64,000 nt of DNA from a candidate division WOR-3 bacterium (GCA_039803305.1 JBDRYG010000001.1:5-64004); one strand, 5' to 3'; shown: positions 16,023-57,944, numbered from the stretch's first letter. The notes: a model not told the origin generated them from the sequence alone. A program made the numbers and translations.

Positions 16023-16025
16023 AAA

Positions 16026-16676: not shown

Positions 16677-16687
16677 AGCTCCTCCTC

Positions 16688-25123: not shown

Positions 25124-25138
25124 AACCTGCTCACCTCC

Positions 25139-26092: not shown

Positions 26093-26733
26093 AACTCAAC
26101 CCTAACCCCACCCCTCTCCTGGGGGAACTCAAGAAAAGACTCCAACTTAAATCCAAACATTTTTGCTACTAAATTAGAAGGAAAAGAAAGGCAAAGGGTA
26201 TTAAGCCGTCTCACACAGTCATTATAGTACTGTCTTGCATAGGCTATTCGGTTTTCAGTGCTTATTATCTCTTCCTGCAAAATCATAAAGTTCTGTGATG
26301 CTTTAAGTTCGGGATAGTTCTCCACAATAACAAGAATCCTCTTTATGATATTCGAAATGCTACCTTCAATGCTCCCCTTCTCCTTCATGTCAGTAACTGA
26401 AATTGCTCTGGTGCGTAATTCAGCGATTTTTTCGAGAAGCTCACGCTCATGTTTCATATAGCCTTTAACCGTTTCCACAAGGTTCGGGATAAGGTCGTAT
26501 CTTCTCTTGAGCTGAACATCAAGTTGAGAAAAAGCTTCCTTCACTCGCACCCTCCATCTTACCAGCGCGTTATAAGTAAGGAAAACATAAAATGTGATAC
26601 AAACTATTATGATTACCAATACATGGGTCCACTGCATAGTTAATATAATAGTCCCGTCTGCTTGATTTTTCAATATCATCTTCCTACAAATCAGTTTTAT
26701 CCCTTTCTGGTTCCAACACGCTCCTTGTAACAC
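26089..26733 (-). CDS. lemA: LemA family membrane protein; true start likely the internal Met near 26637 (MQWTHV...)
   Basis: TM helix followed by YNALVRWRVRVKEAFSQLDVQLKRRYDLIPNLV, characteristic of LemA; 4-nt overlap with the downstream htpX. Confidence 0.7.
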   Translation of the reverse strand: MLQGACWNQKGIKLICRKMILKNQADGTIILTMQWTHVLVIIIVCITFYVFLTYNALVRWRVRVKEAFSQLDVQLKRRYDLIPNLVETVKGYMKHERELLEKIAELRTRAISVTDMKEKGSIEGSISNIIKRILVIVENYPELKASQNFMILQEEIISTENRIAYARQYYNDCVRRLNTLCLSFPSNLVAKMFGFKLESFLEFPQERGGVRVEF

Positions 26734-32100: not shown

Positions 32101-33794
32101 GTGGGGTTAGAACCTGAGGTATATCTCCCCCAGTTGTAGGAACCGCTTATTATCTGCCTTGTCCATCCAAGAGGTGGGAAATCTGGTGGAAAGAATGTGG
32201 ATGCAGCTACGGTAGAATCATCCCATAATTCAACATATAGTTTAGCTGTATTATTGTTATGGTAATCATCAGGATAAACTCCTACCTGTAAGGTATCAAA
32301 GCCAAGATTGGAAAAATAAATGTGTACCGGCATTGAGACCACAGCGTATTCGCCGGGATTTAATGCCACAGGATATGAAAAACCTTGAGATGCACCCACA
32401 TTTACAAATGCATAACCTAAATCAACCGAGGAGACGGGTGTATTTCCCGAGTTAACAACCACAACATAGATCGAATCTGTAACACCGCGTTTTAATACAG
32501 GAGCAATTCTTCTAGCATCTAAAACACATAGGTCAGAGTTAAATATTCTTTGTTCCATTTCCACAATGTGTCCACCGCAGGTAAGCACAAGCTCATTACC
32601 AGGTCTCCAACGGTTTACATCCGCAATCTTGACACCGTAATCGGCAGCTTCAGCAATCTTGGGTAAAATCCCAACAAGTGGCCTTCCAAAAGGAGAGTAG
32701 GCAAACCAGAGGGAAAAGCTAGTATTAGTAGTTCCTGTATTTGTTAGGACAACTTCTTGTCCTGGAATTTCTCTAAGGAAATCCCCTATTTCTATTTCAT
32801 TATTTCCCGCTATTCCCCAGGTGCTGTAAAGTGCATAGGCAACTCCGGAAAATGCACTTCCCGTCCAGTTCCATACCGAAAGCTGATAGGAAGTAGAGCC
32901 GTGCACAATGCAAACCTCAGGCCCAGGCATTGCGGGATTTATGTCGCCAATGGCGATATCATTGACACTCGAAAGCCCCGTATATATAGTTTGAGTCTGC
33001 CACGAAGTTCCATTCCAGTAAGCCATGGCAAAATCTGACCCACCACCAGTATAAACTTCATTTCCAGGTAAATCAGGATTTACATCCCCTATTGCAACTG
33101 CTCTATATCTCTGTGTCCTTCCCGTAAATGTTACCCTGACTGTATCAAAGGATGTCCCATTCCACTTGGCGATCATGAAGGCGGAAGGATTATTATTTGC
33201 CACGTTAAATACAATATCCCTTGCTACACCATCGTTGTCCGCATCGCCTATTACAATATTATTGATATAATCTCCAGAACCTACTCCAATACTATCCCTC
33301 GCCACCCAGTTAACCGCCCCAGGATCCCATTCAAACCAGCGAAGCCATATTTTTCCGGCAACAGCAGCATTATCCGCAGTCAAAATATCGGTATACTCGT
33401 CTCCATCCACATCCCCGATACATACCGCATGCTCTGTAGCGCCCGATGGGAAGGAATATGGAGTTTCTATCCTGAACTTCCTCGTTCCAAAAGCCACACT
33501 TGAGGTGTCAGTAGCAATAATTAAATACCTTGTTCCACCACTTTGAACCGATACAACCCTTATAGTATCGTCACTTAAGCCCTTAAATTGTGTCCCTACA
33601 GCTACCTGTCTCGTTAGGTTTGCTGAAGAACCATAGAATATATAGTTTGTATCAATCAAAGGAGCAGGAACCTTGGACATACTGCCCACCCATATAGGGG
33701 TTTCAACAGGTATGGGGGGCACATCATCAACCTTTGCTTTCTGGGCAGTTGCCATACCCAGAAGCAATATCAACACTATAAACCCTTTAGGCAT
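29154..33794 (-). CDS. Very large secreted protein with FG-GAP/integrin-alpha-like beta-propeller repeats, multiple beta-sandwich domains and a T9SS C-terminal sorting domain
   Basis: Signal peptide MPKGFIVLILLLGMATAQ; repeated xIGDVDGDxxxD / IGDADNDG / IGDVNPDLPGNEV / IGDINPAMPGPEV calcium-binding-like FG-GAP motifs; tail EISIYSVTGQKVATL...GVYIVKM. Confidence 0.6.
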   Translation of the reverse strand: MPKGFIVLILLLGMATAQKAKVDDVPPIPVETPIWVGSMSKVPAPLIDTNYIFYGSSANLTRQVAVGTQFKGLSDDTIRVVSVQSGGTRYLIIATDTSSVAFGTRKFRIETPYSFPSGATEHAVCIGDVDGDEYTDILTADNAAVAGKIWLRWFEWDPGAVNWVARDSIGVGSGDYINNIVIGDADNDGVARDIVFNVANNNPSAFMIAKWNGTSFDTVRVTFTGRTQRYRAVAIGDVNPDLPGNEVYTGGGSDFAMAYWNGTSWQTQTIYTGLSSVNDIAIGDINPAMPGPEVCIVHGSTSYQLSVWNWTGSAFSGVAYALYSTWGIAGNNEIEIGDFLREIPGQEVVLTNTGTTNTSFSLWFAYSPFGRPLVGILPKIAEAADYGVKIADVNRWRPGNELVLTCGGHIVEMEQRIFNSDLCVLDARRIAPVLKRGVTDSIYVVVVNSGNTPVSSVDLGYAFVNVGASQGFSYPVALNPGEYAVVSMPVHIYFSNLGFDTLQVGVYPDDYHNNNTAKLYVELWDDSTVAASTFFPPDFPPLGWTRQIISGSYNWGRYTSGSNPTCTPLDAPAMAGYPSYNASAGSQARLITSVINVGPVSRKVKLRFYMYHDPGYSTSYDSIYVEYSLDGTNFTTLQGYQRYSATAGWAPEEVEIGDFLGGTQLYVAFRAKSAYGNNMYIDSVRVFVTEPTAADTDAQILSVNVPKPVIQGDNNSVSITLKNSGLNPITSLTLFYTLGGVDTVFETWTGNLPAGMIMTYNFQEPLVPPDTGLITLYAGVELAGDAIPENDTVSTTLYVWPYAQDLPYAHNFDEAWENSINPPFGGWKIIDGGDEGVPTVNNNDWHRFVAATPARTVARVYFSPVENQNDWLISPRLRIPGYGTYTLSYWHWYRDYSTSTLDSGRVLISFDDGNSWIELAKYSNESDSGYRSVDLTPHIIPRIGSAEYFRIAFHYGARDEYYWWVDDFSVSFAPDTTPPMVQTLRTPTYTYNTGPDTLIIVVSDDSPFSVEAFAVVNDTVIVSFSQDFEPGIDTILVEIPGRPAGTLFDGYLAVGDVNGNGWQGHGAWWKLIAYDAGTPSIGAVRDPDPGVRLGWARPRQSLRIYGGVAYYFTGFYPGDVVAVRFTPQYTPARVDSVVALLFGTASPIHVKIYADNNGIPGEVLFDTLITSPAVYPNYLRLDLSSANIMVNGDYHVGIEWTATNAPYPTSDAGSNTNRSTYFEASSSTWYDWVGFDWIIRSVVTYFPRSKAYVANHTPSNAKRNPALVRYAITGKVEDEGTTKYIEKYTVLRGTTSGGPYDVLGATSDITFTDYTIQHETQYFYVVRMDYVNPDTMTYSTEVSITTDFVGPQFSAFAYDTGGVNNIWISVIITDPSGIYRDTLYYSINGADFAFATNDSIVGSTYYYTIPGLNIGDNVDLYFVALDNSAWRNPSRFPETGYISFEVTSITDLKPKAFAFNAKSLSSASRGFEFAYALPERSEVEISIYSVTGQKVATLVKGTREAGYHTVRWNGKDERGSAVGSGVYIVKMITPKKTFTSKLILAK

Positions 33795-36557: not shown

Positions 36558-36604
36558 ACTCTTGATTTTTCAATTCTAAGGAACTATAATTAAGAACGGG
36601 AGGA

Positions 36605-37324
36605 TTGTATATTATGGCAAAGAAAGTTAAAATCGCAAAAAAGCAGGAAATAAAACACGACCCTGTAAGGGAAGCAATATTAAAGTTTATTCAATTTTTT
36701 AAAGACCTATCAAAACAAAAATATTTTTATTACGGCCTTTATGGTCTCGGCGCCATTGCCATCATTGTCCTAATATACAGTCTGTATAAAAACTCCACAA
36801 AACCAAGAGTTTCTTATGAAGCAGATGTCTTTTTACTACAGGCTATATATGCTATTTCCAGCCAGGACACTGTTACTGCCCCAGCGCTGCTTGATACATT
36901 GATAACGAAATTTTCAAGAACGACTTCAGGAATGAGGGCATACTATCATGCGGGAGTTTATTACCTGAAAATGGGGGATCAACAAAGGGCACTCAGATAC
37001 TTTAAAAAGTTCCTCTCAACACCAGTAGACGACAAATTACTGCGAACTTTTGCATACGCTCAGCTGTCAGATATATATGTAGATATGAAAAAGTACGGGA
37101 CAGCCATAAATTATATGAAAAAAGCCTATAACAGCGCACCTGAAGGATCTCTTAAGGCCTATTATTATTACAAAATAGCTAAAATATATTCCCAGAGTGG
37201 CAATCTTCAAAAGACGAAGAAATTACTTTCCTCCTTTGAAAAAAAATTCCCCAAGTCTGCCTTGAAGCAAGCCGTGGCTGAAGAACTAAACTTTATTAAA
37301 GGCATGCTTGGGGAGGTGAATTAG
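36605..37324 (+). CDS. Membrane-anchored TPR-repeat protein
   Basis: One TM helix (YYGLYGLGAIAIIVLIYSL) then TPR-like repeats (YYLKMGDQQRALRYFKKF, AYNSAPEGSLKAYYYYKIAKIY). Confidence 0.45.
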   Translation: MYIMAKKVKIAKKQEIKHDPVREAILKFIQFFKDLSKQKYFYYGLYGLGAIAIIVLIYSLYKNSTKPRVSYEADVFLLQAIYAISSQDTVTAPALLDTLITKFSRTTSGMRAYYHAGVYYLKMGDQQRALRYFKKFLSTPVDDKLLRTFAYAQLSDIYVDMKKYGTAINYMKKAYNSAPEGSLKAYYYYKIAKIYSQSGNLQKTKKLLSSFEKKFPKSALKQAVAEELNFIKGMLGEVN

Positions 37325-37329
37325 AACTC

Positions 37330-39786
37330 ATGAATTTACCATATTTTAATGATTTCACTGCCAGTCTCCGAAAGGTGGTGGAGAGGGCGAAAGAGGAAGC
37401 GTCTAAGGAAGGGTATAGTAGCACTGTTAATTTAGAGCACTTAATTCTTGCAATTTTAACCACTCAGGATGGTAGTGCCTATGCTCTCCTGGAAGAGGAA
37501 GGGGTATCCTATGACCGATTTAAGCGCTCACTGGATAGGCTAAGACCCCCGAGACTTATTCTTGAACATCCCGTAAGTGCCAAGGAGATTAAATTTAGCC
37601 CGAGAGCCATTAAAGCTTTTGAATATGCAAAGGACGAAGCGCTAAAACTTCATAAACAATACATAGGAACAGAGCACCTTTTACTCGGAATCCTTAGAAT
37701 AGAAGAGGACATCACTTATCGAATTCTGGTTATAGATTTTAATATAACCTACGAACTGATACTTGAAAAAATCCTGAGATCTTCGAAAGATCAGGATAGG
37801 CCGGGCTTTAGGAATACTAAATTAAAAAACTTAGAAACCTTCTCCACGGACCTGACAAAACTTGCAAGGGAAGGTAAGCTCGATCCTGTAATAGGAAGAG
37901 AGAGGGAAATAGAAAGGGTCCTGCAGATACTTTCCCGAAGAAAGAAAAACAACCCGGTGCTCATTGGAGAGCCAGGAGTAGGAAAAACTGCCATAGTTGA
38001 AGGTATTGCTCAGAGAATTGCGCAAGACCAGGTTCCCGACTCCCTCCTCGACAAAAGGATCTTGCAATTAGACCTAACAGCAATTGTAGCAGGGACAAAA
38101 TACCGTGGCCAGTTTGAAGAGAGACTAAAAGCAATCCTTGACGAAGCAAAAGATTCTCCAGATGTAATCTTATTCATAGACGAACTACACACCGTAGTTG
38201 GTGCAGGTGCTGCAGAAGGTTCCTTGGATGCCTCTAATATTTTGAAACCATCCTTAGCCCGTGGACAGATTCAGATAATAGGAGCAACTACCCTTGAGGA
38301 TTACAGAAAATACATAGAAAAAGACGGCGCTTTAGAAAGAAGGTTCCAGCCTGTGTTTGTCGATCCTCCAACTGTAGAGGAAACAATTGAGATTCTCTAC
38401 GGTTTAAAAGAAAAATATGAAAGCTTTCACGGCGTTAAATACACTGACGAAGCTATAGAGGCGGCTGCAAAGCTTTCCGACAGGTATATTACTGATAGAT
38501 ATTTACCTGATAAAGCAATAGATGTTCTAGATGAAGCAGGAGCTAAAGTTAAGCTTAAAACCCCTGAAACTGATGAATACTTAGAAGAACTTAAGAAAGA
38601 TCTTGAAAATCTCAAGAAAGCAAAGGAATTAGCAAAGGAAAGACAGGACTTCGAAACGGCGTCACTCTTAAAAGAAAGAGAAGAATATTTAAAAGAGCAG
38701 ATAGCGGAAAGGAAGAGAAAATTAAGGAGTCGTGGACAGCCACTTACGGTAACCAAAGACCATATAGCTGAGATCATTTCCTTATGGACAGGAATTCCTG
38801 TTGCAAGGCTTGCAGAAAGTGAAATGGAGAAACTCCTAAAAATGGAGGAAGAACTAAAAAAACGAATTGTGGGTCAAGACGAAGCTATCTCTGCTCTCGC
38901 AAAAGCAATAAGGCGTTCAAGGGCTGGTATTAAGGACCCAAGACGACCTATTGGTTCCTTCATATTCTTAGGACCAACCGGTGTTGGTAAAACGGAAACG
39001 GCGAAAGTATTGGCAGAATTCCTATTCAACGACAGGGATGCTGTGATCGAGATTAATATGTCCGAATACATGGAGAAATTCAATGTCAGTAAACTTATCG
39101 GTGCTCCACCCGGATATGTTGGATACGAAGAGGGAGGACAGCTTACCGAAAAGGTTAGAAGAAAACCTTATTCTGTTATTCTTTTTGATGAATTTGAAAA
39201 AGCCGATCCTGAGGTGTTTCACATCCTGCTTCAGATAATGGAAGAAGGTGTCTTAACAGATAGTTTTGGCAGAAGGGTGAGCTTCAGAAATTCAATAATT
39301 ATTTTGACTTCTAACATCGGCACGAAAACATTGAGCAAAAATAAGATGCTTGGCTTTAAATCTGAGGAACTTTCAAAAACCTTTGACGAGATGAAAAACT
39401 TTCTCCTGCAAGAACTGAAAAATACCATACCGCCAGAACTTTACAACCGCGTTGACGAAGTAATTATATTCAAACCACTTACAAAAGAGGATCTGCTAAC
39501 GATTGTTGATCTACTTCTCCAGGACTTAGAAACAAGAATAAAAGAGCTAAATATCAAAATTGAGCTCACGTCCGATGCAAAGGAGTTTCTACTTGAAAAA
39601 GGCTATGAGCCGGATTTTGGTGCAAGGCCATTGAGAAGAACCATCAGAAAATACATTGAAGAGCCTCTTTCAGAGCTAATTTTGAGTGGTGTACTACATG
39701 AAAATTCATTTGTAAGAGTTTCAAGAAAAGAAGACTATCTTGACTTTGAAGTGGTTAAACCCGAGCCCGCTAAAAAGGGAGGATAA
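37330..39786 (+). CDS. clpC: ATP-dependent Clp protease ATP-binding subunit ClpC (Hsp100, two AAA+ modules, UVR-like motif)
   Basis: Clp_N repeats, Walker A GEPGVGKT and GPTGVGKT, ClpB/ClpC signature regions, UVR-like [16 protein letters not shown]. Confidence 0.9.
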
Positions 39787-39792
39787 ACCTAA

Positions 39793-42003
39793 ATGTCCCT
39801 GGTTTTGCTTGCTCTTTTAATAGGCCAGTATTCTTTTATCGTTAAAGACGTAAAAGTTGAAGGATTAAAATGGTGGGATACTCCCACGATAATGAGTGCC
39901 ATCGGGGTAAAAAGGGGACAGTCTTTGACTCCTTTGTCCATTCGCCAGACCTTGAAAAAAGCATATCTCACTGAATACTTTGATGATCTTTATATTTTAG
40001 CCCAAATTGACAACCAAAGGGGCGATTTGCTTGTAAGAATCAAAGAGAATCCTAAGCTCGGAACACTCAATTTTGTAGGTATGAAGGCCCTCCGTGGAGG
40101 TTCTATAAAGGACTCCTTGGGATTAAAGGGAAACATGCCAATTTCTTCTGCAACAATTTATAAACTCAAAAATTACATCCTGGAAGAATACAGAAAAAAA
40201 GGGTATTATGGCACAGAAGTAACCGTTGACAAAAAAGTAAGTGACGATGGCAAAATAGACTTAACTGTCAATGTAAGGGAAGGAACAAAAGCAAGAATCA
40301 AACAAATTATTTTCCACGGGAATAATGCTTTTAGCTCTTCAAGACTAAAGAGAGTCATTAAGACCAAGGAAAAGAAATTTTTGATATTTACTGGCAAACT
40401 TGACGAAGAAAAATTCACCGAAGATTTGCAGAGACTTAAAGAATTCTATATGAACAATGGCTATCCTGAGGTAAAGATAGACTCCACAACTACCGAGACA
40501 AAAGAAAAGGAACTCTTTGTTCATATATATCTAAACGAGGGTAAAAAATATTACTTTGGGAACTTCAAACTTGAGGGCAACAACTTCTTCAAACAAGAAC
40601 TCCTGCAAAAGCTTGTTCGTTTCAAAAGTGGAGAACTCTATTCTCAGAAAAAAATAAATAAAACCATTGAAGATATAACAAGCGTCTACGGCGATTCCGG
40701 ATTTCTCTTTGTCAATGTCCTACCCTATTCTGAAGAAGTCCGAGACTCTTTTATAGACCTTAAAATATACATATTCGAAGGGCCCAGAATCAAAATTAGA
40801 AAGATTGACATAGTAGGTAATACAAAGACCTATGACGAGGTCATAAGAAGGGAGCTTGATGTCCTACCGGGAGAGTTCTTTTCACGGCAAAAACTCATAA
40901 AAAGTCAAAGAGATCTCTACTATTTGAACTTTTTTGAAAACGTCGAAGTTAATTTCTCACCTACGGACGATTCAAATTTTGTTGACCTAACTTTTAAAGT
41001 AACAGAAAAATATACTGGAAACATCGGGCTTGGCGCTACATACTCACAACTTGATGGCCTCTCAGCGTACTTTCAAATCCAGCAACCAAACTTCAGGGGA
41101 AAGGGTGAGATTGCTAATCTCCTTATAGAATATGGATTCCGAAAAAGAAACTTTCAGATAGGATTTACAAAACCCTGGCTCTTTGGGAGAAAACAGCAGG
41201 CTGGATTTAACCTCTATTCACTTTCAACATACTACCCTCAATATACTGTGACTAAAACCGGGGGAAACCTTAGTTATGGTCGAAGGGTAATTAACGACTA
41301 CTGGAGAATCTTTACCCAGTACACTCTTGAACGCACAAAGCTTTACGATATAGATTCAAGTTTACTTGCAAGTCCAACATACTCATATTGGGCAAATAGA
41401 GGATGGCAATGGTCTTCAAGTATTTTTTATTCGTTATCCTTTGATAATAGAGACAGAGTGTTCAATGCTACTACAGGAAATATTTTCAAATATGACGGGA
41501 CACTTTCCGGTGGACCTCTTCGAGGGGACATACACTTTTTTAAACAGGAGTTTGAGCTTTCAAAACTTATACCTGAATTTAAAAATGTCATAGGCGCAGT
41601 TTCCTTCAAAACAGGATATATCAGGGGGCTTTATCACCCTGATTCTATTCCTTTTTATGAGAGGTTTTTCCTAGGTGATGTGGGACCCTATGGGCTCAGG
41701 GGTTATGAACTAAGAAGTGTTGGTCCAAGGGAAAACGGAATAAATATTGGCGGCAGGATTTATTTCATACTTACCTTAGAACAAAGATATAGAATCAATG
41801 ATAATATGTATGTCCTTGCTTTCTTCGACGCAGGTAATGCTTTTAAGAATGTGAACACTTTAAGACCATTTATCGTCAAAAAGGGTATAGGAGCAGGTAT
41901 AAGGATGGAGATTCCGTTGATGGGTGTAATAGGATTTGATTTTGCGTATGGAATTGATTCCAAGAAATGGATCCCTCACATACAACTAGGAACCTCTTTT
42001 TAG
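39793..42003 (+). CDS. bamA: Outer membrane protein assembly factor BamA (POTRA repeats plus Omp85 beta-barrel)
   Basis: Signal peptide, POTRA-like repeats, surface-antigen barrel with C-terminal ...IQLGTSF aromatic end. Confidence 0.8.
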   Translation: MSLVLLALLIGQYSFIVKDVKVEGLKWWDTPTIMSAIGVKRGQSLTPLSIRQTLKKAYLTEYFDDLYILAQIDNQRGDLLVRIKENPKLGTLNFVGMKALRGGSIKDSLGLKGNMPISSATIYKLKNYILEEYRKKGYYGTEVTVDKKVSDDGKIDLTVNVREGTKARIKQIIFHGNNAFSSSRLKRVIKTKEKKFLIFTGKLDEEKFTEDLQRLKEFYMNNGYPEVKIDSTTTETKEKELFVHIYLNEGKKYYFGNFKLEGNNFFKQELLQKLVRFKSGELYSQKKINKTIEDITSVYGDSGFLFVNVLPYSEEVRDSFIDLKIYIFEGPRIKIRKIDIVGNTKTYDEVIRRELDVLPGEFFSRQKLIKSQRDLYYLNFFENVEVNFSPTDDSNFVDLTFKVTEKYTGNIGLGATYSQLDGLSAYFQIQQPNFRGKGEIANLLIEYGFRKRNFQIGFTKPWLFGRKQQAGFNLYSLSTYYPQYTVTKTGGNLSYGRRVINDYWRIFTQYTLERTKLYDIDSSLLASPTYSYWANRGWQWSSSIFYSLSFDNRDRVFNATTGNIFKYDGTLSGGPLRGDIHFFKQEFELSKLIPEFKNVIGAVSFKTGYIRGLYHPDSIPFYERFFLGDVGPYGLRGYELRSVGPRENGINIGGRIYFILTLEQRYRINDNMYVLAFFDAGNAFKNVNTLRPFIVKKGIGAGIRMEIPLMGVIGFDFAYGIDSKKWIPHIQLGTSF

Positions 42004-42018
42004 AAAAGGAGGTCAAAA

Positions 42019-43551
42019 ATGAGCAAAAAAATAAAATGGATATTTATTGTACTAACAGTGTTTATTTTAGGAACAATTAGTGGTTTCATACTCACAGCCC
42101 AACTCAGGTTAGCGAATCTGGAAAGTAAGGATGCGAAAGTCTACTTTGTAGAGGGTGAAGGTGGACAGCTGGAAAGCCCATTTGTAAAGGTTGCTGAACA
42201 GGCCACTATGGCAGTGGTCAATATTAGTACTGAACGGGTAATAAAGTTCAAAGAATCCCCCTTCTTTGATGAAAATGATCCCTTCGACCAGCTTTTCAGG
42301 AGGTTCTTTGATTTCCCTATGCCTCAAATTCCAAGAGAATACAAATCAACAAGCTTGGGGTCAGGCTTCATATTTAACAAGGATGGCGACAAGTATTATG
42401 TTTTAACCAATAATCATGTTGTAAAAAATGCAGACAAAATAATTATCAAACTATATGACGGGACAAAGATTACAGGCGATGATGTTAAAATAGTGGGGAC
42501 AGACAGAAATACAGACCTTGCAATACTATCTATAAAAACCAAAAAAGATTTACCAGTATTAAAACTCGGCGATTCTGATAAGATTAAAATAGGAGACTGG
42601 GCCATTGCCGTTGGAAATCCTTTTGGGTTAGAAGGTACGGTAACCGTCGGTGTTATCAGTGCTAAAGGAAGATCCGGAATCCCACTGCCTGACGGACCTG
42701 TTTACGAAAATTTTATACAAACAGATGCAGCTATCAACCCTGGAAACTCAGGTGGACCACTTTTAAATATTCGAGGCGAAGTAATCGGAATCAATACAGC
42801 CATAACATCCCCTTCGGGTGCATTTGCCGGGGTTGGGTTTGCAATTCCAGTGAACACTGCTAAATATGTCATAGAGCAAATCCTCAATAAAGGGAAGGTC
42901 GTAAGAGGGTATATTGGCATATACCCCCAGGCTCTAACTGAGGAATTAGCCAAGACCTATGGCCTTGACTCTCCAAGGGGGGTTCTCGTAGCGAAGGTAC
43001 TTAAGGACAGCCCTGCAGAAAAAGCTGGTATTAAAGAGGAAGATGTAATAGTTAAATTTGACGGGAAAGACATTACTGACGTTGAGCAATTTAGACTCCT
43101 CGTTGCACAGACAAAACCAGGTAAAACAGTAGACGTCGAGATAATAACCCAAAAGGGAGAAAGAAAAATAGTTAAAGTAAAAGTCGGAGAATATCCAGAG
43201 GAAACAGTAACAGCTCAGGACACTGAGAAACCTGAGGAGAGAGAGACCAAACCTTCGGAACAGAAGTGGTTGGGAATGACGGTGATTGACATTGAATCAG
43301 CAAGAAGAATTGGACTCTACTCTGGGAGTGATGAGGATGGTGTAGTCGTAAAAGAGGTTGAGAGGGGATCGGTGGCAGACTTTGCGGGAATTATTAAAGG
43401 CGATTTAATACAAAAAATCGGAGATATTGAAATTAAATCACTAAAGGACTTCTCAAAAGCTTCAAGCACCTATAAAAATTCGCGCGGTCCTATGAGATTT
43501 AAGATCATAAGAAATGGTATGCCCATATTTATAGCAATTACCTTAAGATGA
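42019..43551 (+). CDS. htrA: Do/HtrA family periplasmic serine endopeptidase with two PDZ domains
   Basis: Catalytic triad context (HV, DLAIL, GNSGGPLLN), two PDZ segments, N-terminal TM anchor. Confidence 0.9.
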   Translation: MSKKIKWIFIVLTVFILGTISGFILTAQLRLANLESKDAKVYFVEGEGGQLESPFVKVAEQATMAVVNISTERVIKFKESPFFDENDPFDQLFRRFFDFPMPQIPREYKSTSLGSGFIFNKDGDKYYVLTNNHVVKNADKIIIKLYDGTKITGDDVKIVGTDRNTDLAILSIKTKKDLPVLKLGDSDKIKIGDWAIAVGNPFGLEGTVTVGVISAKGRSGIPLPDGPVYENFIQTDAAINPGNSGGPLLNIRGEVIGINTAITSPSGAFAGVGFAIPVNTAKYVIEQILNKGKVVRGYIGIYPQALTEELAKTYGLDSPRGVLVAKVLKDSPAEKAGIKEEDVIVKFDGKDITDVEQFRLLVAQTKPGKTVDVEIITQKGERKIVKVKVGEYPEETVTAQDTEKPEERETKPSEQKWLGMTVIDIESARRIGLYSGSDEDGVVVKEVERGSVADFAGIIKGDLIQKIGDIEIKSLKDFSKASSTYKNSRGPMRFKIIRNGMPIFIAITLR

Positions 43552-44378
43552 TAAGATATCCACAACACGCAGGAACATTTTACCCTGATACTAAAGAGGG
43601 TATAATAGAGATCTTTTCGAAATTCGAAATACAAGGGAAAAACACAAATGTTGATGTTAAAACGCCCATCGGACTCATTGCACCTCATGCTGGATATATC
43701 TACTCCGGCTTTGTGGCATATATAACCTATAAGAACGCTTTTAAATCAAGTGAATTTAGTAACATTATAATACTCGGTCCGTCCCACTATGTTTATTTTA
43801 AAGGAGTTTCTATTTTTCCTGAGGGTTCCTGGGTTACACCTATCGGTGAAGTCGAAATTAACACTAAAATTACCCTTTCTCTTTCGCAAAAATCGTCCTA
43901 TTTTTCCAATTCTCCGGATCTTCACCGAAGAGAACATTCAATAGAGGTACAGATACCTTTTGTACAGCACTTCAATCCTAATGCAAAAATTGTCCCGCTT
44001 CTTGTGGGGGAAATGAACGACAAGATGGTTGATGAAGTAGGGCAAGCCCTTGCTGAAGTATTATTGGAAAATCAGGATACCCTTATTGTGGCGAGTTCTG
44101 ACCTCTACCATGGCGAATCCTACAGAGCCTGCGTGGAATCCGACAGAAATACCATTGACTTAATTTTAAACGGCGATTGGCGGAAATTTTATGCTGCTTC
44201 GAAAACAGGGGAAATTATGGCATGTGGTGATCTGCCAATATCTATCCTTATGAGTGCCATTGAACGATTAAACCCTGATTATACCCGGTCTCTTGTTTTT
44301 TATACAAACTCAGGAGATGTGACGGGTATTAGAAGTGGGTATGTAGTAGGTTACGCAGGGATACTTTTCGGGATTTGA
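43548..44378 (+). CDS. amrB: AmmeMemoRadiSam system protein B (MEMO1 family)
   Basis: YPQHAGTFYPD ... IAPHAGYIYSG Memo hallmark; 4-nt overlap with the htrA stop. Confidence 0.75.
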   Translation: MIRYPQHAGTFYPDTKEGIIEIFSKFEIQGKNTNVDVKTPIGLIAPHAGYIYSGFVAYITYKNAFKSSEFSNIIILGPSHYVYFKGVSIFPEGSWVTPIGEVEINTKITLSLSQKSSYFSNSPDLHRREHSIEVQIPFVQHFNPNAKIVPLLVGEMNDKMVDEVGQALAEVLLENQDTLIVASSDLYHGESYRACVESDRNTIDLILNGDWRKFYAASKTGEIMACGDLPISILMSAIERLNPDYTRSLVFYTNSGDVTGIRSGYVVGYAGILFGI

Positions 44379-44950
44379 CGATGCAAAATTTACAATTATC
44401 AAAAGATGAGAAAATTACGCTTTTAAAGCTAGCAAGACAAACTTTGGATAATAAGTTTTCGGGTTTGAAAGACCCTGTACTTACAGACCCTACTGAAAAC
44501 TTGAAAGCCTTTTGTGGTGCATTCGTAACACTTAGAAAACACAATCAACTTAGAGGCTGTATCGGTTATATAAAAGGTATTAAACCTCTTTGGGAAGAGA
44601 TTGTAAACTTAGCAAAAGAGGCTGCTTTCCATGACCCAAGGTTTTACCCATTAAGACCAGAGGAACTTAAAGAAGTAGAAATAGAGATATCAGTCTTAAC
44701 ACCCTTACAAAAAATTTCAGACCCCAACCTTATTGAAGTTGGGAAACACGGCATTCTCATAAAGAGAGGTTTTATGCAGGGACTTCTCCTTCCACAAGTT
44801 GCCATTGAAGAAAACTGGGACAGGGAAACTTTCCTGGACCATACTTGCCTTAAAGCTGGACTTTATCCAGGGTGTTGGAAAGATGAAAAGACGGAAATCT
44901 ACATTTTTGAAGCCTTAGTATTCAGTGAAAAAGAATTTGGACTAAAATAG
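44375..44950 (+). CDS. amrA: AmmeMemoRadiSam system protein A (AMMECR1 domain)
   Basis: GAFVTLRKHNQLRGCIGYI AMMECR1 signature; 4-nt overlap with amrB. Confidence 0.75.
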   Translation: MTMQNLQLSKDEKITLLKLARQTLDNKFSGLKDPVLTDPTENLKAFCGAFVTLRKHNQLRGCIGYIKGIKPLWEEIVNLAKEAAFHDPRFYPLRPEELKEVEIEISVLTPLQKISDPNLIEVGKHGILIKRGFMQGLLLPQVAIEENWDRETFLDHTCLKAGLYPGCWKDEKTEIYIFEALVFSEKEFGLK

Positions 44951-47485
44951 AAAATTATATCCAGCACGAATTTTCTTGACAGATTGAACACTTTTTGTAT
45001 AGAGTGTTTCTACGAAAAGTTCCCCCGATTTGTGCTTGTACTTCAAATTCATATTAAATGCATACCTCTCTGAAGTCGGCACAAAGTAAGGTAAATCATT
45101 GTATCTAACGCCAAAAGGAGCATTTATACTCAAATTAAATATACCATGCCAGCTGTCTTTTATGAAATACCATGCCCCCTGCAATGATAGGGCCTTGTAA
45201 GTCTCCCCTTTATACCAGGTATTAACAGGTCCGAACCTGATAGAAAGGCCCCTAAACCTAAAATCGAAACTGCTACTTAGATATGAATATGACAGGTTGT
45301 CCTGTACGTTACGCTCGAACATAGGTGTAATCCAGAGTGACCTACAAACAAAAAATTCCAGGGAATACCTCTCCTCTCTTTTTACGTAGGGTCGGACAAA
45401 AGAACTGTCTACGAAACTCGTAACATATGCAGTGGCTGTATGGGGACCTACCTTTAATTGCCCTATTAAAGACCTAACAAGGTCATATACACCCCTCTTT
45501 TGTGACAACATGATATTTAATCCACGGCTTTCACTCCGGGAATCAAGTTCAAACTCTAAGGTATTACTAAGGGATGTATCCTTGATTCCCAAGGATAAAA
45601 AATGTCTCTCAAAATCACCTAACTGCGAAGGGGTATAAACACCAAAACTTCTATCTAACTCATACGTCCCTGCTGGTGATCTGTAAAACCTTTCTTCTTT
45701 GTAATAAACCAATTCTGGCATTTTGCTTGTTCCAAGACTCATCCTCGTGTGACCCTCTAAATTATAGGTTAATTTCAATCTGTATAGAGGATAACTCCAG
45801 TGTTCACGCAAATAAAATATTTCAGAAAAAAAATTCATCCTGCTTTCGCTTTCTAATATCTTGATCATCAAGTACGGCCAGATTTTCTGTAAATTTTTAC
45901 TGAAAACAAAACCCCCGGAGAAATTTAGATTTCTTAAATTTTTACCAATTTCAACGAGTAATGGTTTATCAGTGTTCTGGAAGATTAAAAATCCATGAGA
46001 TTTGGGCGAGAGCCAGCTTAATATCAGTTTTGCGTCAATTGTATCGGTTTGAGTCAAATTCAATAAAATCCCAAAAGGACCAGGATTTGATGTAAGCCTT
46101 AAAGCACTGCGAGGGTTTTTATTATCTAATCCAATTGTATATTCAACAAAAGTATTTGCCCAATCGAGATGAATATTTCCAAAGTGCTCTAAGAGGCGAC
46201 CCTTGCCCTCTATACCAAAAAACTTACTTAAATATTCCTTAAAATCTGAAAAATTCTCTGTTTTCCACCTAACGCCGGAGGTCAGTTGAATGTTGTTTAT
46301 TTCGACTTTTTTACTCAAAGAGGCCTTAAAACCCAGATTATCACTATCCCCTACTTTACTCAGTTTATTTAAATCGCTATAGGAAGCTTTGAAATCAATA
46401 CTTAATTTACCATCATAAGTTAGGGATATCACATTGTGCTCCCGAGGGGCAGGAATTCTAAAAAGCGGTTCATAATGACCGGCACCGTAACCTACATATT
46501 TGTATGCACTTTGTATATTATCAAATATGTAACTTCCTCTATTTATACCCACAAACTCAAAATAGACGATATACTCGCCTTTCCCATCACCAGCAAAGAC
46601 AAAGAAAGAATCCTGAAGGTTATAGCTACCTTCGCTATTCTTTATTCCGCCCTTGAACTCCACATAGTCCTCGATATCACCAACCTGGCTTAAAAACTTT
46701 TTTAGCGTATCCAGAATCCCTTCGTAGTACTTCATGGTACTCCCCAGATGTTCGAACACTACTTTTAAACCACCTGATGAATAAAAAAATGACCCGTATA
46801 CAGAGGGCAAGTTATTATATGTTGCATATTCTACGAAAAATCTGTCTGCTCCTTTAAGAAGATCGTAATCCTTTATCCATAATATCCCAGACTGGTAATC
46901 AAACTCATACTTCGACTTATCCACAATCATATCACCTTTAATCACCTTTAAAGAGCCAGGCACTATCATATAACCATAGTCTACGAAGTATGGTCCTGAA
47001 TTCGGATATTTAACACTTAACTCTTTCTTAACCGTTGAGGTGTTTGTTGAACCATAAGTAAAGCCAATATTTTGAAAACACCCCGAGAAACCTAAAAGCT
47101 TTACTTCGGGCAGAGCTATCTTACCAAATTTTAAGAAATTATTAGATGAGTCGCTCACTTCGAAGAAGATCTCGTCCATGTCCTTAAGCAAGGTAGTGTA
47201 ATAATCAGTTCCGTAGTCAGCTTTACTATCTAAAAGTCTCCCCTTTATAAAGTACTTTTTTGAAATTGTTCCACTTAAAGTAATATCAAGTCTCTGAGAC
47301 AAGCTATAGGTAAAGCCGTTAAAAGACACAAAGAAGCCTTTTGAACCACTAAAATCAATAGACTCAGTATTTTTCTCCAAATCCAGAGAGTCTAAAGTTG
47401 ATGTATCTTCCGATGTTGAAATCTTAGGATTTGTAAACCTTAAAACATAAGCAAGAACTAAAGCTCCCCAAAAAGGTAAAGCCAC
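44942..47485 (-). CDS. Large hypothetical outer-membrane beta-barrel-like protein (847 aa), function unknown
   Basis: Hydrophobic N-terminus, abundant alternating amphipathic beta-like segments rich in Y/F/G, C-terminal ...GYNFLF aromatic terminus typical of OMPs. Confidence 0.35.
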   Translation of the reverse strand: MALPFWGALVLAYVLRFTNPKISTSEDTSTLDSLDLEKNTESIDFSGSKGFFVSFNGFTYSLSQRLDITLSGTISKKYFIKGRLLDSKADYGTDYYTTLLKDMDEIFFEVSDSSNNFLKFGKIALPEVKLLGFSGCFQNIGFTYGSTNTSTVKKELSVKYPNSGPYFVDYGYMIVPGSLKVIKGDMIVDKSKYEFDYQSGILWIKDYDLLKGADRFFVEYATYNNLPSVYGSFFYSSGGLKVVFEHLGSTMKYYEGILDTLKKFLSQVGDIEDYVEFKGGIKNSEGSYNLQDSFFVFAGDGKGEYIVYFEFVGINRGSYIFDNIQSAYKYVGYGAGHYEPLFRIPAPREHNVISLTYDGKLSIDFKASYSDLNKLSKVGDSDNLGFKASLSKKVEINNIQLTSGVRWKTENFSDFKEYLSKFFGIEGKGRLLEHFGNIHLDWANTFVEYTIGLDNKNPRSALRLTSNPGPFGILLNLTQTDTIDAKLILSWLSPKSHGFLIFQNTDKPLLVEIGKNLRNLNFSGGFVFSKNLQKIWPYLMIKILESESRMNFFSEIFYLREHWSYPLYRLKLTYNLEGHTRMSLGTSKMPELVYYKEERFYRSPAGTYELDRSFGVYTPSQLGDFERHFLSLGIKDTSLSNTLEFELDSRSESRGLNIMLSQKRGVYDLVRSLIGQLKVGPHTATAYVTSFVDSSFVRPYVKREERYSLEFFVCRSLWITPMFERNVQDNLSYSYLSSSFDFRFRGLSIRFGPVNTWYKGETYKALSLQGAWYFIKDSWHGIFNLSINAPFGVRYNDLPYFVPTSERYAFNMNLKYKHKSGELFVETLYTKSVQSVKKIRAGYNFLF

Positions 47486-49273
47486 TTAAGTTATGTTAAG
47501 GACTGCCTTTACAATCTCGTCCCCAACACCGTATTTCCTAAGAAATTCTTCCCGTTCCTTTTTTATTCTTGATACCCACTCTTCATATTCCGCTAATCTA
47601 CCTTGTTTTTCGTATAATATTCTCGGACAGAGAATTTCAACAGGTACTTTTTCAATCAAAGGTTTGTTCTCCGGAGCATTTATGTCTACAACAAAGTAAC
47701 CAAAATCTGGATCAACTGTCCACTTAATCTCGTCTCTAAAAAGTGCTTCCAGCATCGCTGTAGAGTGACTTATCTTGACCTTAAGAGCTATCCCACTCTT
47801 CTCATCCAGCTGGTCACCACCAACATATCCAGTATTCATCATCCATGTTATAATTCCTTTATTCCTCTCCATGAGTTCCTGAAATCTAATCGCCTGCAAT
47901 TTGTGGTTGAGTGGGAAGAAAGGCTGTGTAAAAGGAGAGCGAGTTTTGCCTCTCTCTTTTCCTGCTGCAGAAGTTTTTGATGTTTCTCCAAGCATGAAAT
48001 ACCCAGAGGCCTGCTCAGGAGTTGCGAATTTGACAATCCCGGGTGTCGCAGCATCTTTTCCTTCGTCCCTGTTAAGAATTCCTATATACTTAAGGGGTGG
48101 AAGGTTATTTAAATCAGCTACATTATCAATAGCACTCAAAGGTATTATTGAACGACCATTTTGTGTCCAGACCACAAAATCCCATCCATCTTTTGGAATA
48201 CCATACTCATCAACTATTTCTTCAAGTTTAACTTCACCCTTGATGTATGCGTCCACATGTACAGGATCGCTTCCGGTTAAGATGAAAACTTCCTTGTAGC
48301 GGTTAACTTCTTCCGGAGTAAGAGCTTCCTTTGAGAAATCGTAAGTCCCATCGGGGTTCATATATACATTTTCAACCCAGGCCGAAGGGTCTATGGTACC
48401 CTTATATATAACGGGCTCTGTTTTCTCAGTAAGACCAAAGGTCTTCGCAAAGCACCCATTCTCCGTGATAGTATAAGAGCCATCAGGCCATAAGGTAATC
48501 ATGTCATCCTGGATTGGCATAGAATGTTCCCCGTGTTTTGCAAAAGTCGTCGTTGTCTTTCCGGTTCCGGAAAGACCCAGAATAGCAACTGCATAATCTT
48601 TCCCATTTATCCTCACGGATTTTGCACCTGCGTGAAGTACAAGCCCACCCTTCTGATATAAGTAATGGTTTAGCATGCGGAGTATACCTTTTTTCGATTC
48701 TCCAAAATAATCTGAATTCATTACATAAGTTACATAATTCTCGAGATCTACTATAATTGCCATCTTGCCTGGTAAATCATCAAGAACAAGGTCGGGAGTA
48801 TATACTACTTTAAAAATGGGCTTAAATTCTCTCTTATACCACTCAGGACCCTCTACAAACTCCCTTGAAAACATCATAACTTGCTGCATACCAGCTACAT
48901 TTGCAGCATTTAGGGTATAAAAGGCTTGAACAGGCACAGCAGTCTCACCGATGCCATAATATCCTTGAATCTCAATTAAAAAGCCCTGCTTCTCGATGAA
49001 ATCCTTTTGAAGCTTTATGTATTTTTCCGCATCTTCTGGAGTCATAATTTTGGAAGAGTAACTGGTCTCTTCACCCTTCTCTGCTATTATGTATGTGAAC
49101 TTTTCCATCCGTGCTTTTCTTAAGGTTACCCTGTTTATATTTCCATAAGCTGAAACAAGGCATGTCTTAATGTTTTCAAGGGCAATCTTCCTCAGTTCTT
49201 CTTGAGAAGGATTGACTATATACTTTACATTGAATGGCTTTGACAATCTTGCTATTTCTTCTCTTAGAGACAT
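47486..49273 (-). CDS. pckA: Phosphoenolpyruvate carboxykinase (ATP)
   Basis: Kinase-1a motif LGLSGTGKTTTT and flanking ENGCFAKTFGL...NVYM blocks matching ATP-PEPCK; about 60-aa N-terminal extension relative to typical enzymes. Confidence 0.75.
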   Translation of the reverse strand: MSLREEIARLSKPFNVKYIVNPSQEELRKIALENIKTCLVSAYGNINRVTLRKARMEKFTYIIAEKGEETSYSSKIMTPEDAEKYIKLQKDFIEKQGFLIEIQGYYGIGETAVPVQAFYTLNAANVAGMQQVMMFSREFVEGPEWYKREFKPIFKVVYTPDLVLDDLPGKMAIIVDLENYVTYVMNSDYFGESKKGILRMLNHYLYQKGGLVLHAGAKSVRINGKDYAVAILGLSGTGKTTTTFAKHGEHSMPIQDDMITLWPDGSYTITENGCFAKTFGLTEKTEPVIYKGTIDPSAWVENVYMNPDGTYDFSKEALTPEEVNRYKEVFILTGSDPVHVDAYIKGEVKLEEIVDEYGIPKDGWDFVVWTQNGRSIIPLSAIDNVADLNNLPPLKYIGILNRDEGKDAATPGIVKFATPEQASGYFMLGETSKTSAAGKERGKTRSPFTQPFFPLNHKLQAIRFQELMERNKGIITWMMNTGYVGGDQLDEKSGIALKVKISHSTAMLEALFRDEIKWTVDPDFGYFVVDINAPENKPLIEKVPVEILCPRILYEKQGRLAEYEEWVSRIKKEREEFLRKYGVGDEIVKAVLNIT

Positions 49274-57087: not shown

Positions 57088-57340
57088 TTAATAGATAGAT
57101 CACAAACAAAGCAAAAATAACCGAAAAAATACTTATGGAAAAGAAAAAGGAAAAACTAAAACCAAAAATGTACAAGTTTAAGTTTACTTGAGGAATTCCT
57201 ATTCTGATTTCGTTAAAAACAACTTCCCTTGCGTGGCTTGCTGGAAAAACATGATACAGGACTTTTCCAACCACACTACCCATTATAAGCCCTAAAATCG
57301 TGGCGGTAAAAACGTTTTTTGAATCTCTTTTCAGTAACAT
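57077..57340 (-). CDS. Possible small membrane protein (87 aa from the internal Met); the N-terminal part of the track ORF is spurious because it runs through two tRNA genes
   Basis: Two hydrophobic helices (ATILGLIMGSVVGKVLY, IFGFSFSFFFSISIFSVIFALFVIYLL); ATG at 57338-57340 (minus). Confidence 0.25.
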   Translation of the reverse strand: MLLKRDSKNVFTATILGLIMGSVVGKVLYHVFPASHAREVVFNEIRIGIPQVNLNLYIFGFSFSFFFSISIFSVIFALFVIYLLIKL

Positions 57341-57353
57341 TTCGATGGATAAA

Positions 57354-57437
57354 TGCCGGGGGCGGGACTTGAACCCGCACGGGATTTTGTCCCAGGGGAT
57401 TTTAAGTCCCCTGCGTCTGCCTTTCCGCCACCCCGGC
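57354..57437 (-). tRNA. tRNA-Leu (anticodon UAA), type II with long variable arm
   Basis: Reverse complement GCCGGGGTGGCGGAAAGGCAGACGCAGGGGACTTAAAATCCCC...GGTTCAAGTCCCGCCCCCGGCA folds with a 7-bp acceptor stem, anticodon loop CUUAAAA and a GTTCAAGTC T-arm. Confidence 0.85.
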
Positions 57438-57439
57438 AT

Positions 57440-57513: not shown

Positions 57514-57553
57514 ATGTTAGAAAATTATACAAAATGAAATCCGTATATGCAAT

Positions 57554-57904: not shown

Positions 57905-57944
57905 TTTCCTTTGAAGTTCCTGTTCCAGACTTCAAAATGTTCAT

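What the first reader, a model, noticed from the sequence alone, without database searches (positions are those of the whole stretch)
36605..44950. Co-directional TPR-clpC-bamA-htrA-amrB-amrA string with 4-6 nt junctions; AmmeMemoRadiSam A/B pair lacks its radical-SAM partner
Six genes run head-to-tail with gaps of at most 15 nt or with ATGA overlaps: a TPR protein, ClpC, BamA, an HtrA protease, a Memo-family protein and an AMMECR1-family protein. Two things stand out. A cytoplasmic AAA+ unfoldase is linked to the outer-membrane insertase and a periplasmic protease. The Memo/AMMECR1 pair normally travels with a dedicated radical-SAM enzyme as the three-gene AmmeMemoRadiSam system, whose function is unknown. 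No CxxxCxxC radical-SAM ORF exists in this window. Either the rSAM gene is elsewhere, or this lineage uses the A/B pair alone, embedded in an envelope quality-control operon.
Basis: partly seen in the sequence, partly recalled or inferred. Interest (0 to 1): 0.5.

Follow-up and report, generated by a model that had tools for sequence, protein, structure and literature searches.

The report
Conserved envelope/proteostasis operon carrying amrB–amrA
A compact genome from the uncultured phylum WOR-3 carries a real six-gene operon (membrane TPR protein, ClpC, BamA, HtrA, Memo-like AmrB, AMMECR1-like AmrA), but its tight spacing and the missing radical-SAM neighbour are both ordinary, and the only mildly new point is that in WOR-3 the AmrB/AmrA pair repeatedly sits next to protease or unfoldase genes.

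Summary
No radical-SAM gene, and no AmrS remnant, exists anywhere in the 64 kb.

The unit has its own promoter footprint (TTGATT-17-TATAAT), invariant in five lineages, and no internal terminator. It is very probably one operon.

Three points deflate the interpretation:
- Junctions of 15 nt or less are the norm in this 96%-coding genome (22 of 29 same-strand pairs outside the string).
- Full synteny is seen only in close relatives (ClpC 85–94% identical), where unrelated flanking genes are collinear too.
- amrS is usually not next to amrB. Only 7 of 25 well-flanked metagenomic amrB loci have it within 10 kb.

Whether this genome has amrS elsewhere could not be tested with these tools.

One real extra emerged. 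More distant WOR-3 lineages have bamA–htrA–hslU–amrB–amrA, htrA–M14–hslU–amrB–amrA, or hslU–fused amrBA. The pair therefore recurrently neighbours proteases or unfoldases in this phylum, and the window's htrA–amrB overlap looks like loss of hslU. Counter-examples exist (L104, L105).

Verdict: ordinary conserved operon, low to moderate interest.

The parts
36562..36590 (+). Sigma-70-type promoter: -35 TTGATT (36562-36567), 17-nt spacer, -10 TATAAT (36585-36590)
   Evidence: Consensus scan gives 10 of 12 matches. Both hexamers and the spacing are invariant in five lineages whose AmrB is 51-100% identical, while the flanking bases vary. Sequence read.
36598..36604 (+). Shine-Dalgarno-like GGGAGGA, 9 nt upstream of the TPR start codon
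   Evidence: Read directly. A GGAGG-like block is present in all relatives.
36614..37324 (+). Membrane-anchored TPR protein (236 aa): Lys-rich N-terminal tail, one TM segment (about residues 38-59), periplasmic TPR domain. The architecture is YfgM-like.
   Evidence: Pfam TPR families plus TPR_21 (the YfgM family) at 22.9 bits, below the 25.5 cut-off. All five orthologs hit TPR_21, best E 1.3e-07. Sequence and conserved MAKK start.
37330..39786 (+). ClpC-type class I AAA+ unfoldase (818 aa) with an LGF ClpP-docking-type loop
   Evidence: Pfam Clp_N, AAA, AAA_lid_9, AAA_2 and ClpB_D2-small. Best PDB match is B. subtilis ClpC/MecB over residues 6-796, 870 bits. LGF at residues 674-676.
39793..42003 (+). 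BamA (736 aa): POTRA repeats plus an Omp85 barrel, ending in ...GTSF
   Evidence: TIGR03303, 523 bits against a cut-off of 297, full length. Pfam POTRA (4 stretches) and Omp85. C-terminus.
42019..43551 (+). HtrA/DegP (Do family) serine protease (510 aa), N-terminal anchor, two PDZ domains
   Evidence: TIGR02037, 478 bits against a cut-off of 416. Triad H133, D166 and S244 (GNSGG), and a hydrophobic N-terminus.
43548..44378 (+). AmrB (Memo family, 276 aa). Its start overlaps the htrA stop (ATGA).
   Evidence: TIGR04336, 251 bits against a cut-off of 26, and Pfam Memo at 6e-57. It keeps all 26 invariant columns of a 37-sequence alignment. The overlap was read and is conserved in all five syntenic lineages.
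44381..44950 (+). AmrA (AMMECR1 family, 189 aa)
   Evidence: TIGR04335, 188 bits against a cut-off of 99, and Pfam AMMECR1 at 2e-58. Motifs RGChG (LRGCIG) and DxRa (DPRF) are present (motifs defined in PMC2034487).
34021..36557 (+). Context only: two upstream co-directional genes (412-aa hypothetical with a signal-like N-terminus; pyrimidine-nucleoside phosphorylase). They lie outside the six-gene unit.
   Evidence: TIGR02644, 578 bits. They are separated from the unit by the promoter-bearing 56-nt gap.
44942..47485 (-). Context only: convergent 847-aa ORF whose 3' end overlaps the amrA 3' end by 9 nt. No family hit. The C-terminus ...YNFLF resembles an OMP beta-signal.
   Evidence: Conserved in position in all syntenic relatives at 31-39% identity.

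Best explanation
This is a six-gene operon in a small, densely packed genome of a Candidatus Hydrothermia / WOR-3 bacterium (MAG GCA_039803285.1).

**How it works**
- A conserved sigma-70-type promoter just upstream of the TPR gene drives one polycistronic transcript (inferred).
- Very short gaps and one ATGA stop/start overlap allow coupled translation (inferred).
- Three products act in the envelope: a YfgM-like inner-membrane-anchored periplasmic TPR protein, the outer-membrane insertase BamA, and the periplasmic protease/chaperone HtrA. These three have a coherent job in delivery, insertion and quality control of outer-membrane proteins (from established knowledge of the families).
- Three products are cytoplasmic: the ClpC unfoldase and an intact AmrB/AmrA pair.

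**How the pair got there**
- The pair sits directly behind htrA because an older WOR-3 arrangement, bamA-htrA-hslU-amrB-amrA, lost hslU (inferred by parsimony).

**The missing rSAM gene**
- The pair belongs to the families that normally co-occur genome-wide with the radical-SAM enzyme AmrS.
- Its absence from the window most likely means amrS is unlinked, as in most amrB loci, not that it is missing (inferred; about 60-65% likely).

**Chemistry of AmrA/AmrB**
- Not known for any organism.
- The published prediction is a Cys-dependent group transfer by AmrA acting in one pathway with the metal-binding Memo protein and the rSAM enzyme (PMC2034487).
For: - Gene identities.
- Source MAG: L001 is 100% identical to the window. 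Close homologs are named Candidatus Hydrothermia or WOR-3.
- Promoter footprint invariant in five lineages. No terminator-like site on the + strand inside the string. No Rfam element in the string.
- The ATGA overlap at htrA/amrB is conserved in all five syntenic lineages.
- Genome compaction and mixed-function strings.
- AmrB and AmrA keep their catalytic or invariant residues.
- More distant WOR-3 lineages carry BamA-HtrA-HslU-AmrB-AmrA (L014: BamA 63% and HtrA 61% identical to the window's), HtrA-M14-HslU-AmrB-AmrA (L097, L103, L101), and HslU-fused AmrBA (L015, L017, L098).
- amrS is unlinked in most amrB loci (7 of 25 linked), although it is a genuine TIGR04337 member where it is present.
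Against: - No transcript data, so single-unit transcription is inferred.
- Presence of amrS elsewhere in the genome was not shown. None of the roughly nine WOR-3 lineages examined has amrS within 8-10 kb of amrB, which is also compatible with loss.
- The hslU-loss scenario rests on three independent lineages. Two WOR-3 counter-examples exist: L104 has AmrBA without HslU, and L105 has HslU without AmrB.
- The YfgM assignment is below Pfam's cut-off for the window copy.
Confidence: 0.6

Rival explanations
1. In WOR-3 the AmrB/AmrA pair is functionally tied to protein quality control. It is kept next to an unfoldase or protease (HslU without HslV, HtrA, ClpC) because it acts on, or is regulated with, damaged or unfolded proteins. 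The operon is then a true proteostasis module spanning cytoplasm and envelope.
For: - Adjacency of amrB(-amrA) to hslU and/or htrA survives rearrangement of all other flanking genes in four lineage groups whose AmrB is only 40-45% identical.
- A genome-wide junction scan found true hslU->amrB junctions only in WOR-3 MAGs.
- Among 80 non-clade amrB loci, HtrA or BamA is never nearby, and HslU is adjacent only in the one WOR-3 contig. The association is therefore specific rather than generic.
- Archaeal AMMECR1 is operonic with NFACT, a family now linked to ribosome quality control (own knowledge).
Against: - Only three or four independent lineages support it, all in one phylum, so it could be slowly decaying ancestral synteny.
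- Counter-examples L104 and L105.
- In the window the unfoldase is ClpC, two genes away, not HslU.
- This compact genome routinely strings unrelated genes together.
- There is no biochemical precedent.
Confidence: 0.2
2. The lineage has lost AmrS altogether and uses the A/B pair alone, as eukaryotes do with MEMO1 and AMMECR1.
For: - No AmrS or remnant in the 64 kb.
- No AmrS within 8-10 kb of amrB in any WOR-3 locus fetched.
- In canonical operons the slot directly upstream of amrB holds amrS (L049, L052, L056, L093). In WOR-3 that slot holds hslU or htrA.
Against: - 0 of about 9 against 7 of 25 is not a significant difference, and unlinked amrS is the common state.
- Both proteins score well above the cut-offs of TIGR04335 and TIGR04336. 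As I recall, those models were defined by co-occurrence with TIGR04337.
- Whole genomes could not be searched.
Confidence: 0.3
3. The string is a chance juxtaposition of separate transcription units with no shared regulation.
For: - The functions are heterogeneous: three envelope and three cytoplasmic products.
- Tight spacing is uninformative in this genome.
Against: - Only one conserved promoter footprint, upstream of the first gene.
- Internal gaps of -4 to +15 nt leave no room for promoters outside coding sequence.
- The htrA/amrB overlap is conserved in five lineages.
- There is no + strand terminator.
Confidence: 0.07

Closest known systems
AmmeMemoRadiSam system (TIGR04335 AmrA / TIGR04336 AmrB / TIGR04337 AmrS), canonical amrS-amrB-amrA operon
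   Same: AmrB and AmrA are adjacent and co-directional. Both score well above the family cut-offs and keep the conserved residues. Canonical examples fetched here are L049, L052, L056 and L093.
   Different: No AmrS in 64 kb. The slot upstream of amrB is occupied by htrA here and by hslU in other WOR-3 lineages. The genome-wide status of AmrS is unknown.
WOR-3 hslU-amrB-amrA arrangements (L014, L097/L101/L103, L015/L017/L098)
   Same: Same phylum. The same amrB-amrA pair (AmrB 40-45% identical to the window's; AmrA 46-59%) lies downstream of proteostasis genes. L014 also shares bamA-htrA upstream.
   Different: HslU is absent from the window's unit. ClpC and the TPR gene are present instead, upstream of bamA. 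In one lineage AmrB and AmrA are fused.
E. coli envelope-biogenesis clusters and sigma-E regulon (yfgM-bamB-der; rseP-bamA-skp-lpxD; degP), from established knowledge
   Same: Co-occurrence of a YfgM-like anchored TPR protein, a Bam component and DegP/HtrA-type quality control.
   Different: Different gene order. The promoter is sigma-70-like rather than sigma-E-type. No skp, lpx or bamB. It includes cytoplasmic ClpC and AmrB/AmrA, which have no counterpart in the E. coli clusters.
Eukaryotic MEMO1 + AMMECR1 (no radical-SAM partner)
   Same: An A/B pair could act without AmrS.
   Different: Absence of AmrS is not shown here. The bacterial proteins match the prokaryotic sub-family models.

Membership tests
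AmmeMemoRadiSam system | Memo-family protein matching TIGR04336 above its cut-off | tested here: met
   250.8 bits against a cut-off of 26, full length. All invariant columns of alignment A1 are retained.
AmmeMemoRadiSam system | AMMECR1-family protein matching TIGR04335 above its cut-off, with the RGChG Cys motif | tested here: met
   187.7 bits against a cut-off of 99. LRGCIG and DPRF are present (motifs from PMC2034487).
AmmeMemoRadiSam system | TIGR04337 radical-SAM enzyme adjacent to, or near, amrA/amrB | tested here: not met
   No CxxxCxxC ORF. No AmrS-HMM hit in six frames (best E 1.8). None within 10 kb in the syntenic relatives.
AmmeMemoRadiSam system | TIGR04337 radical-SAM enzyme present somewhere in the same genome | not testable with these tools
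   Whole genomes cannot be browsed. A homology search with the nearest available AmrS returned only Patescibacteria sequences.
BamA (TIGR03303) | Full-length match above the cut-off: POTRA repeats plus an Omp85 barrel with an aromatic C-terminus | tested here: met
   523.4 bits against 297. POTRA in 4 stretches plus Omp85. The protein ends in ...GTSF.
HtrA/DegP Do family (TIGR02037) | Match above the cut-off, His-Asp-Ser triad, PDZ domains, export signal or anchor | tested here: met
   477.6 bits against 416. H133, D166 and S244, and a hydrophobic N-terminus. Two PDZ stretches.
ClpC (class I Clp/Hsp100 with a short M-domain) | Two AAA+ modules, Clp_N domain, short middle domain, ClpP-docking (L/I/V)-G-(F/L) loop | tested here: met
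   Single-stretch alignment to B. subtilis ClpC/MecB, 870 bits, whereas ClpB aligns in two stretches. LGF at residues 674-676. No NCBIfam equivalog cut-off is reached (ClpB 956 against 1232; ClpA 763 against 993).
YfgM family (Pfam TPR_21, PF09976) | Match above the gathering score; N-terminal TM anchor with a periplasmic TPR-like domain | tested here: inconclusive
   The window copy scores 22.9 bits against a cut-off of 25.5. Five of five orthologs hit the family, best E 1.3e-07. The topology is consistent with YfgM. No solved homolog beyond generic TPR proteins.
Single operon | One promoter, no internal terminator, one transcript | tested here: inconclusive
   A conserved promoter footprint and the absence of + strand terminators support it. 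Transcript data are not available.

The most novel reading that the evidence does not exclude
Across WOR-3, the function-unknown AmrB/AmrA (Memo/AMMECR1) pair has exchanged its usual radical-SAM neighbour for proteostasis partners (an HslV-less HslU, HtrA, ClpC). It works without AmrS in protein quality control. That would give the first concrete functional handle on two conserved, disease-linked protein families.
Probability: 0.12. Interest if true: 0.65.

Novelty: new member of a known kind. Interest (0 to 1): 0.25.

Why it matters
Memo and AMMECR1 are conserved from archaea to humans and still have no known reaction, so any reproducible genomic partner is a lead. Here the lead is weak. It is a phylum-restricted, non-universal tendency of amrB-amrA to sit beside htrA or hslU.

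The operon itself is an ordinary lineage-specific arrangement of housekeeping genes. Its practical use is as a well-delimited transcription unit, with promoter, RBS and six genes, for annotating WOR-3 genomes. It also shows that 'AmrS missing nearby' should not be read as 'AmrS missing'.

Tried and rejected
- **Metagenome scan with the single AmrB sequence:** found nothing, because the patterns were too specific.
- **Finding a Hydrothermia AmrS by homology:** I used the AmrS fragment of L018, the closest AmrB relative with a linked AmrS. L018 turned out to be a Patescibacteria lineage, and all 120 listed hits were CPR. The top-120 limit makes this approach unworkable.
- **Supplements of the WOR-3 comparative paper and the sy37 isolate paper:** no per-gene tables are held. 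sy37 has 60.6% GC and 2.39 Mb, so it is a distant lineage.
- **Burroughs et al. 2019 (JBC, Memo/PCAD superfamily):** not held. From memory, it links Memo contexts to nucleotide-base and isoprenoid modification.
- **HslU elsewhere in Hydrothermia genomes:** no listed hit carried the contig-length fingerprints of those genomes. The list saturates at 57-60% identity across many phyla, so the result is inconclusive.
- **First version of the hslU->amrB junction pattern:** The accepted version fixes the codons GAC CTN, so it under-counts. Two of its four hits were chance matches in gammaproteobacteria.
- **'Five of five relatives have HslU':** rejected. L015, L017 and L098 are one lineage (74-99.8% identical, same flanking genes), so the count is three independent lineages.
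- **BamD-like lipoprotein reading of the TPR protein:** rejected. It has no lipobox and has an internal TM segment instead.


Full report
**1. What is there**

The window has ORFs at 36605/36614-37324, 37330-39786, 39793-42003, 42019-43551, 43548-44378 and 44375/44381-44950, all on the + strand. Their identities are as follows.

- **TPR protein.** Pfam and NCBIfam identify it as a TPR protein.
- **ClpC.** It is a two-module Clp/Hsp100 ATPase. Its best solved relative is B. subtilis ClpC/MecB, aligned end to end (870 bits, one stretch), whereas ClpB aligns in two pieces. It carries an LGF loop at residues 674-676.
- **BamA.** TIGR03303, 523 bits against a cut-off of 297.
- **HtrA.** A Do-family HtrA (TIGR02037, 478 bits against 416) with triad H133/D166/S244, an N-terminal anchor and two PDZ domains.
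- **AmrB.** TIGR04336, 251 bits against 26.
- **AmrA.** TIGR04335, 188 bits against 99.
- **Conserved residues.** AmrB keeps every invariant column of a 37-sequence alignment. AmrA keeps the RGChG (LRGCIG) and DxRa (DPRF) motifs that Balaji and Aravind proposed as its active site.

The junctions are +5, +6, +15, -4 (ATGA) and +2 nt. The conserved start of the TPR gene is the ATG at 36614, not the TTG at 36605.

**2. No radical-SAM gene**

- A CxxxCxxC-type motif occurs only in two spurious antisense ORFs of 56-58 aa.
- I built an HMM from ten AmrS proteins. Three representatives were confirmed as TIGR04337 at 302-380 bits against a cut-off of 220. Run with filters off, the HMM finds nothing in any of the six frames (best E 1.8).
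- Pfam scans of the window's larger ORFs show no Radical_SAM domain.

**3. Source**

L001, contig JBDRYE010000004.1 of MAG GCA_039803285.1, is 100% identical over the region. Close AmrB homologs are labelled Candidatus Hydrothermia or candidate division WOR-3.

**4. Is it an operon?**

- The only sizeable gap (56 nt) lies upstream of the TPR gene. It contains TTGATT-17-TATAAT.
- Aligned across five lineages whose AmrB is 51-100% identical, both hexamers and their spacing are invariant while the surrounding bases vary. They are followed by a GGAGG-like RBS and a conserved ATGGCAAA start.
- No terminator-like site lies on the + strand inside the string, and there is no Rfam element.
- The ATGA overlap between htrA and amrB is kept in all five lineages.
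- At the 3' end, amrA overlaps a convergent 847-aa gene by 9 nt.

I infer a single transcription unit of six genes. The two co-directional genes upstream (a 412-aa hypothetical and a pyrimidine-nucleoside phosphorylase) lie before the promoter.

**5. How much do the tight junctions and the synteny mean?**

They mean little.

- ORFs of at least 150 aa cover 96% of the window. The median same-strand gap is 3 nt. Of the 29 same-strand pairs outside the string, 22 have gaps of 15 nt or less.
- Other strings join plainly unrelated genes, for example purH-purN-phosphoribosyltransferase-PIN-radA-mlaD-transaldolase-truA at 9696-17419 on the minus strand.
- The relatives that share the full order are close (ClpC 85-94%, PEPCK 80-87%, HtrA 70-85% identical). 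They also share the unrelated flanking genes: the hypothetical and PyNP upstream, and the 847-aa ORF, PEPCK, M24 peptidase and GGDEF downstream. This is general collinearity.

**6. Is a missing AmrS neighbour unusual?**

No. An alignment-based scan gave 80 diverse metagenomic amrB loci.

- AmrS lay within 4 kb in 20 of the 80.
- Among the 25 loci with at least 4 kb on both sides, AmrS lay within 10 kb in only 7.
- Of those 25, 9 had a fused B-A gene, 6 had a separate adjacent amrA, and 10 had no detectable amrA within 4 kb.

The three genes are therefore often dispersed. Whether this genome has amrS elsewhere could not be determined:

- Whole genomes cannot be read with these tools.
- The one homology search I could aim at the question returned only Patescibacteria AmrS.
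- Two papers' supplements held no gene tables.

**7. What the wider comparison adds**

Outside the collinear clade, the nearest AmrB relatives (40-45% identity) show these arrangements:

- L014: BamA(C-terminus)-HtrA-HslU-AmrB-AmrA, with BamA 63% and HtrA 61% identical to the window's.
- L097, L103 and L101: HtrA-M14 peptidase-HslU-AmrB-AmrA-CN hydrolase.
- L015/L016, L017 (the same contig as L102) and L098: HslU followed by a fused AmrBA. These count as one lineage.

The HslU proteins are true TIGR00390 members (about 600 bits against a cut-off of 362). None has hslV nearby.

I wrote a junction pattern consisting of the HslU C-terminus, a short gap and the AmrB N-terminal motif. Scanned over 185,579 species genomes, it gave four hits. 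The two real ones are WOR-3 MAGs, and the other two are chance matches. In the 80 diverse loci, HtrA and BamA are never near amrB, and HslU is adjacent only in the WOR-3 contig.

Counter-examples exist. L104 has S-adenosylhomocysteine hydrolase upstream of a fused AmrBA. L105/L106 have a WOR-3 HslU followed by unrelated genes.

The most economical reading is that hslU-amrB-amrA, sometimes preceded by htrA and bamA, is an old WOR-3 arrangement, and that the window's clade lost hslU, leaving htrA abutting amrB. The clpC-bamA link was not seen outside the clade.

**8. Mechanism**

- **Shown:** gene identities, intact catalytic motifs, a conserved promoter footprint, and conserved overlaps.
- **Inferred:** one sigma-70-driven mRNA co-expresses three envelope proteins (a YfgM-like anchored TPR protein, BamA and HtrA) that together deliver, insert and police outer-membrane proteins, plus the cytoplasmic ClpC and AmrB/AmrA.
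- **YfgM-like label:** it rests on topology and on TPR_21 hits in five of five orthologs. The window copy scores below Pfam's cut-off.
- **AmrA/AmrB chemistry:** the only published proposal I could read is a Cys-mediated transfer in one pathway with the Memo-type protein and the radical-SAM enzyme, possibly an RNA base modification (PMC2034487; PMC4075521).
- **Speculative alternative:** the recurring protease/unfoldase neighbours in WOR-3, together with the archaeal AMMECR1-NFACT operon and NFACT's role in ribosome quality control (own knowledge), allow a link to protein quality control.

**9. Verdict**

The feature is a lineage-specific operon made of known families, and neither the tight spacing nor the absent rSAM neighbour is remarkable. 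The WOR-3 tendency of amrB-amrA to sit beside htrA or hslU is a modest new lead. A genome-wide TIGR04337 search and a phylum-wide neighbourhood survey would settle it. Interest 0.25.

Noticed in passing
window 44942-47485 (-): An 847-aa ORF with no Pfam or NCBIfam hit, convergent with amrA and overlapping it by 9 nt. It ends in ...RAGYNFLF, which resembles an outer-membrane beta-barrel signal. It is conserved in position in all syntenic relatives but only 31-39% identical.
   Followed up: partly
L014:2746-4056, L015:8654-9985, L097:8661-10004, L098:4122-5450, L103:8661-10004, L105:8001-9359: WOR-3 HslU genes (TIGR00390, about 600 bits in the two tested) never have an hslV (proteasome-family) gene within 8-10 kb. 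HslU may be uncoupled from HslV in this phylum.
   Followed up: partly
L104:436-3119: In one near relative (GCA_054039835.1) the fused AmrB-AmrA gene is preceded by S-adenosylhomocysteine hydrolase rather than HslU. This is a SAM-metabolism neighbour in a locus without AmrS.
   Followed up: no
L006:6249-8460: BamA of GCA_017880035.1 is called as two ORFs (565 + 179 aa). This is probably a frameshift or an assembly error in that 1.69-Mb contig. The JGI contig L007 of the same species has it intact (736 aa).
   Followed up: no
window 43548-44950 compared with L006, L008, L009 and L011: Across the syntenic clade AmrB diverges much faster (51-62% identity) than AmrA (68-81%), HtrA (70-85%) or ClpC (85-94%).
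   Followed up: no
window 24173-26733 (-): Two tandem M48 peptidase paralogs (316 and 317 aa) followed by a LemA-family gene, all tightly packed.
   Followed up: no
window 47486-49273 (-): The PEPCK_ATP-like protein (595 aa) matches the family in two stretches and is below every NCBIfam PEPCK cut-off (best 278 bits against 369). It is a divergent PEPCK conserved at 80-87% identity in the clade.
   Followed up: no
window 1648-4890 (+), 29154-33794 (-), 63473-63991 (-): Very large proteins (1080 and 1546 aa) with C-terminal FlgD_ig domains, and a small ORF with a Por_Secre_tail. These look like type-IX-secretion-style cargo. L097 and L103 also have a Por_Secre_tail M14 peptidase between htrA and hslU.
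   Followed up: no
window 57353-57513 (-): tRNA-Leu(taa) and tRNA-Cys(gca) lie in the only long non-coding stretch of the window (57088-57944).
   Followed up: no
L018:3-1466: The metagenomic AmrB second-closest to the window's (40% identity) belongs to a Patescibacteria (CPR) lineage with a canonical amrS-amrB junction. AmrB similarity therefore does not track phylum here.
   Followed up: partly
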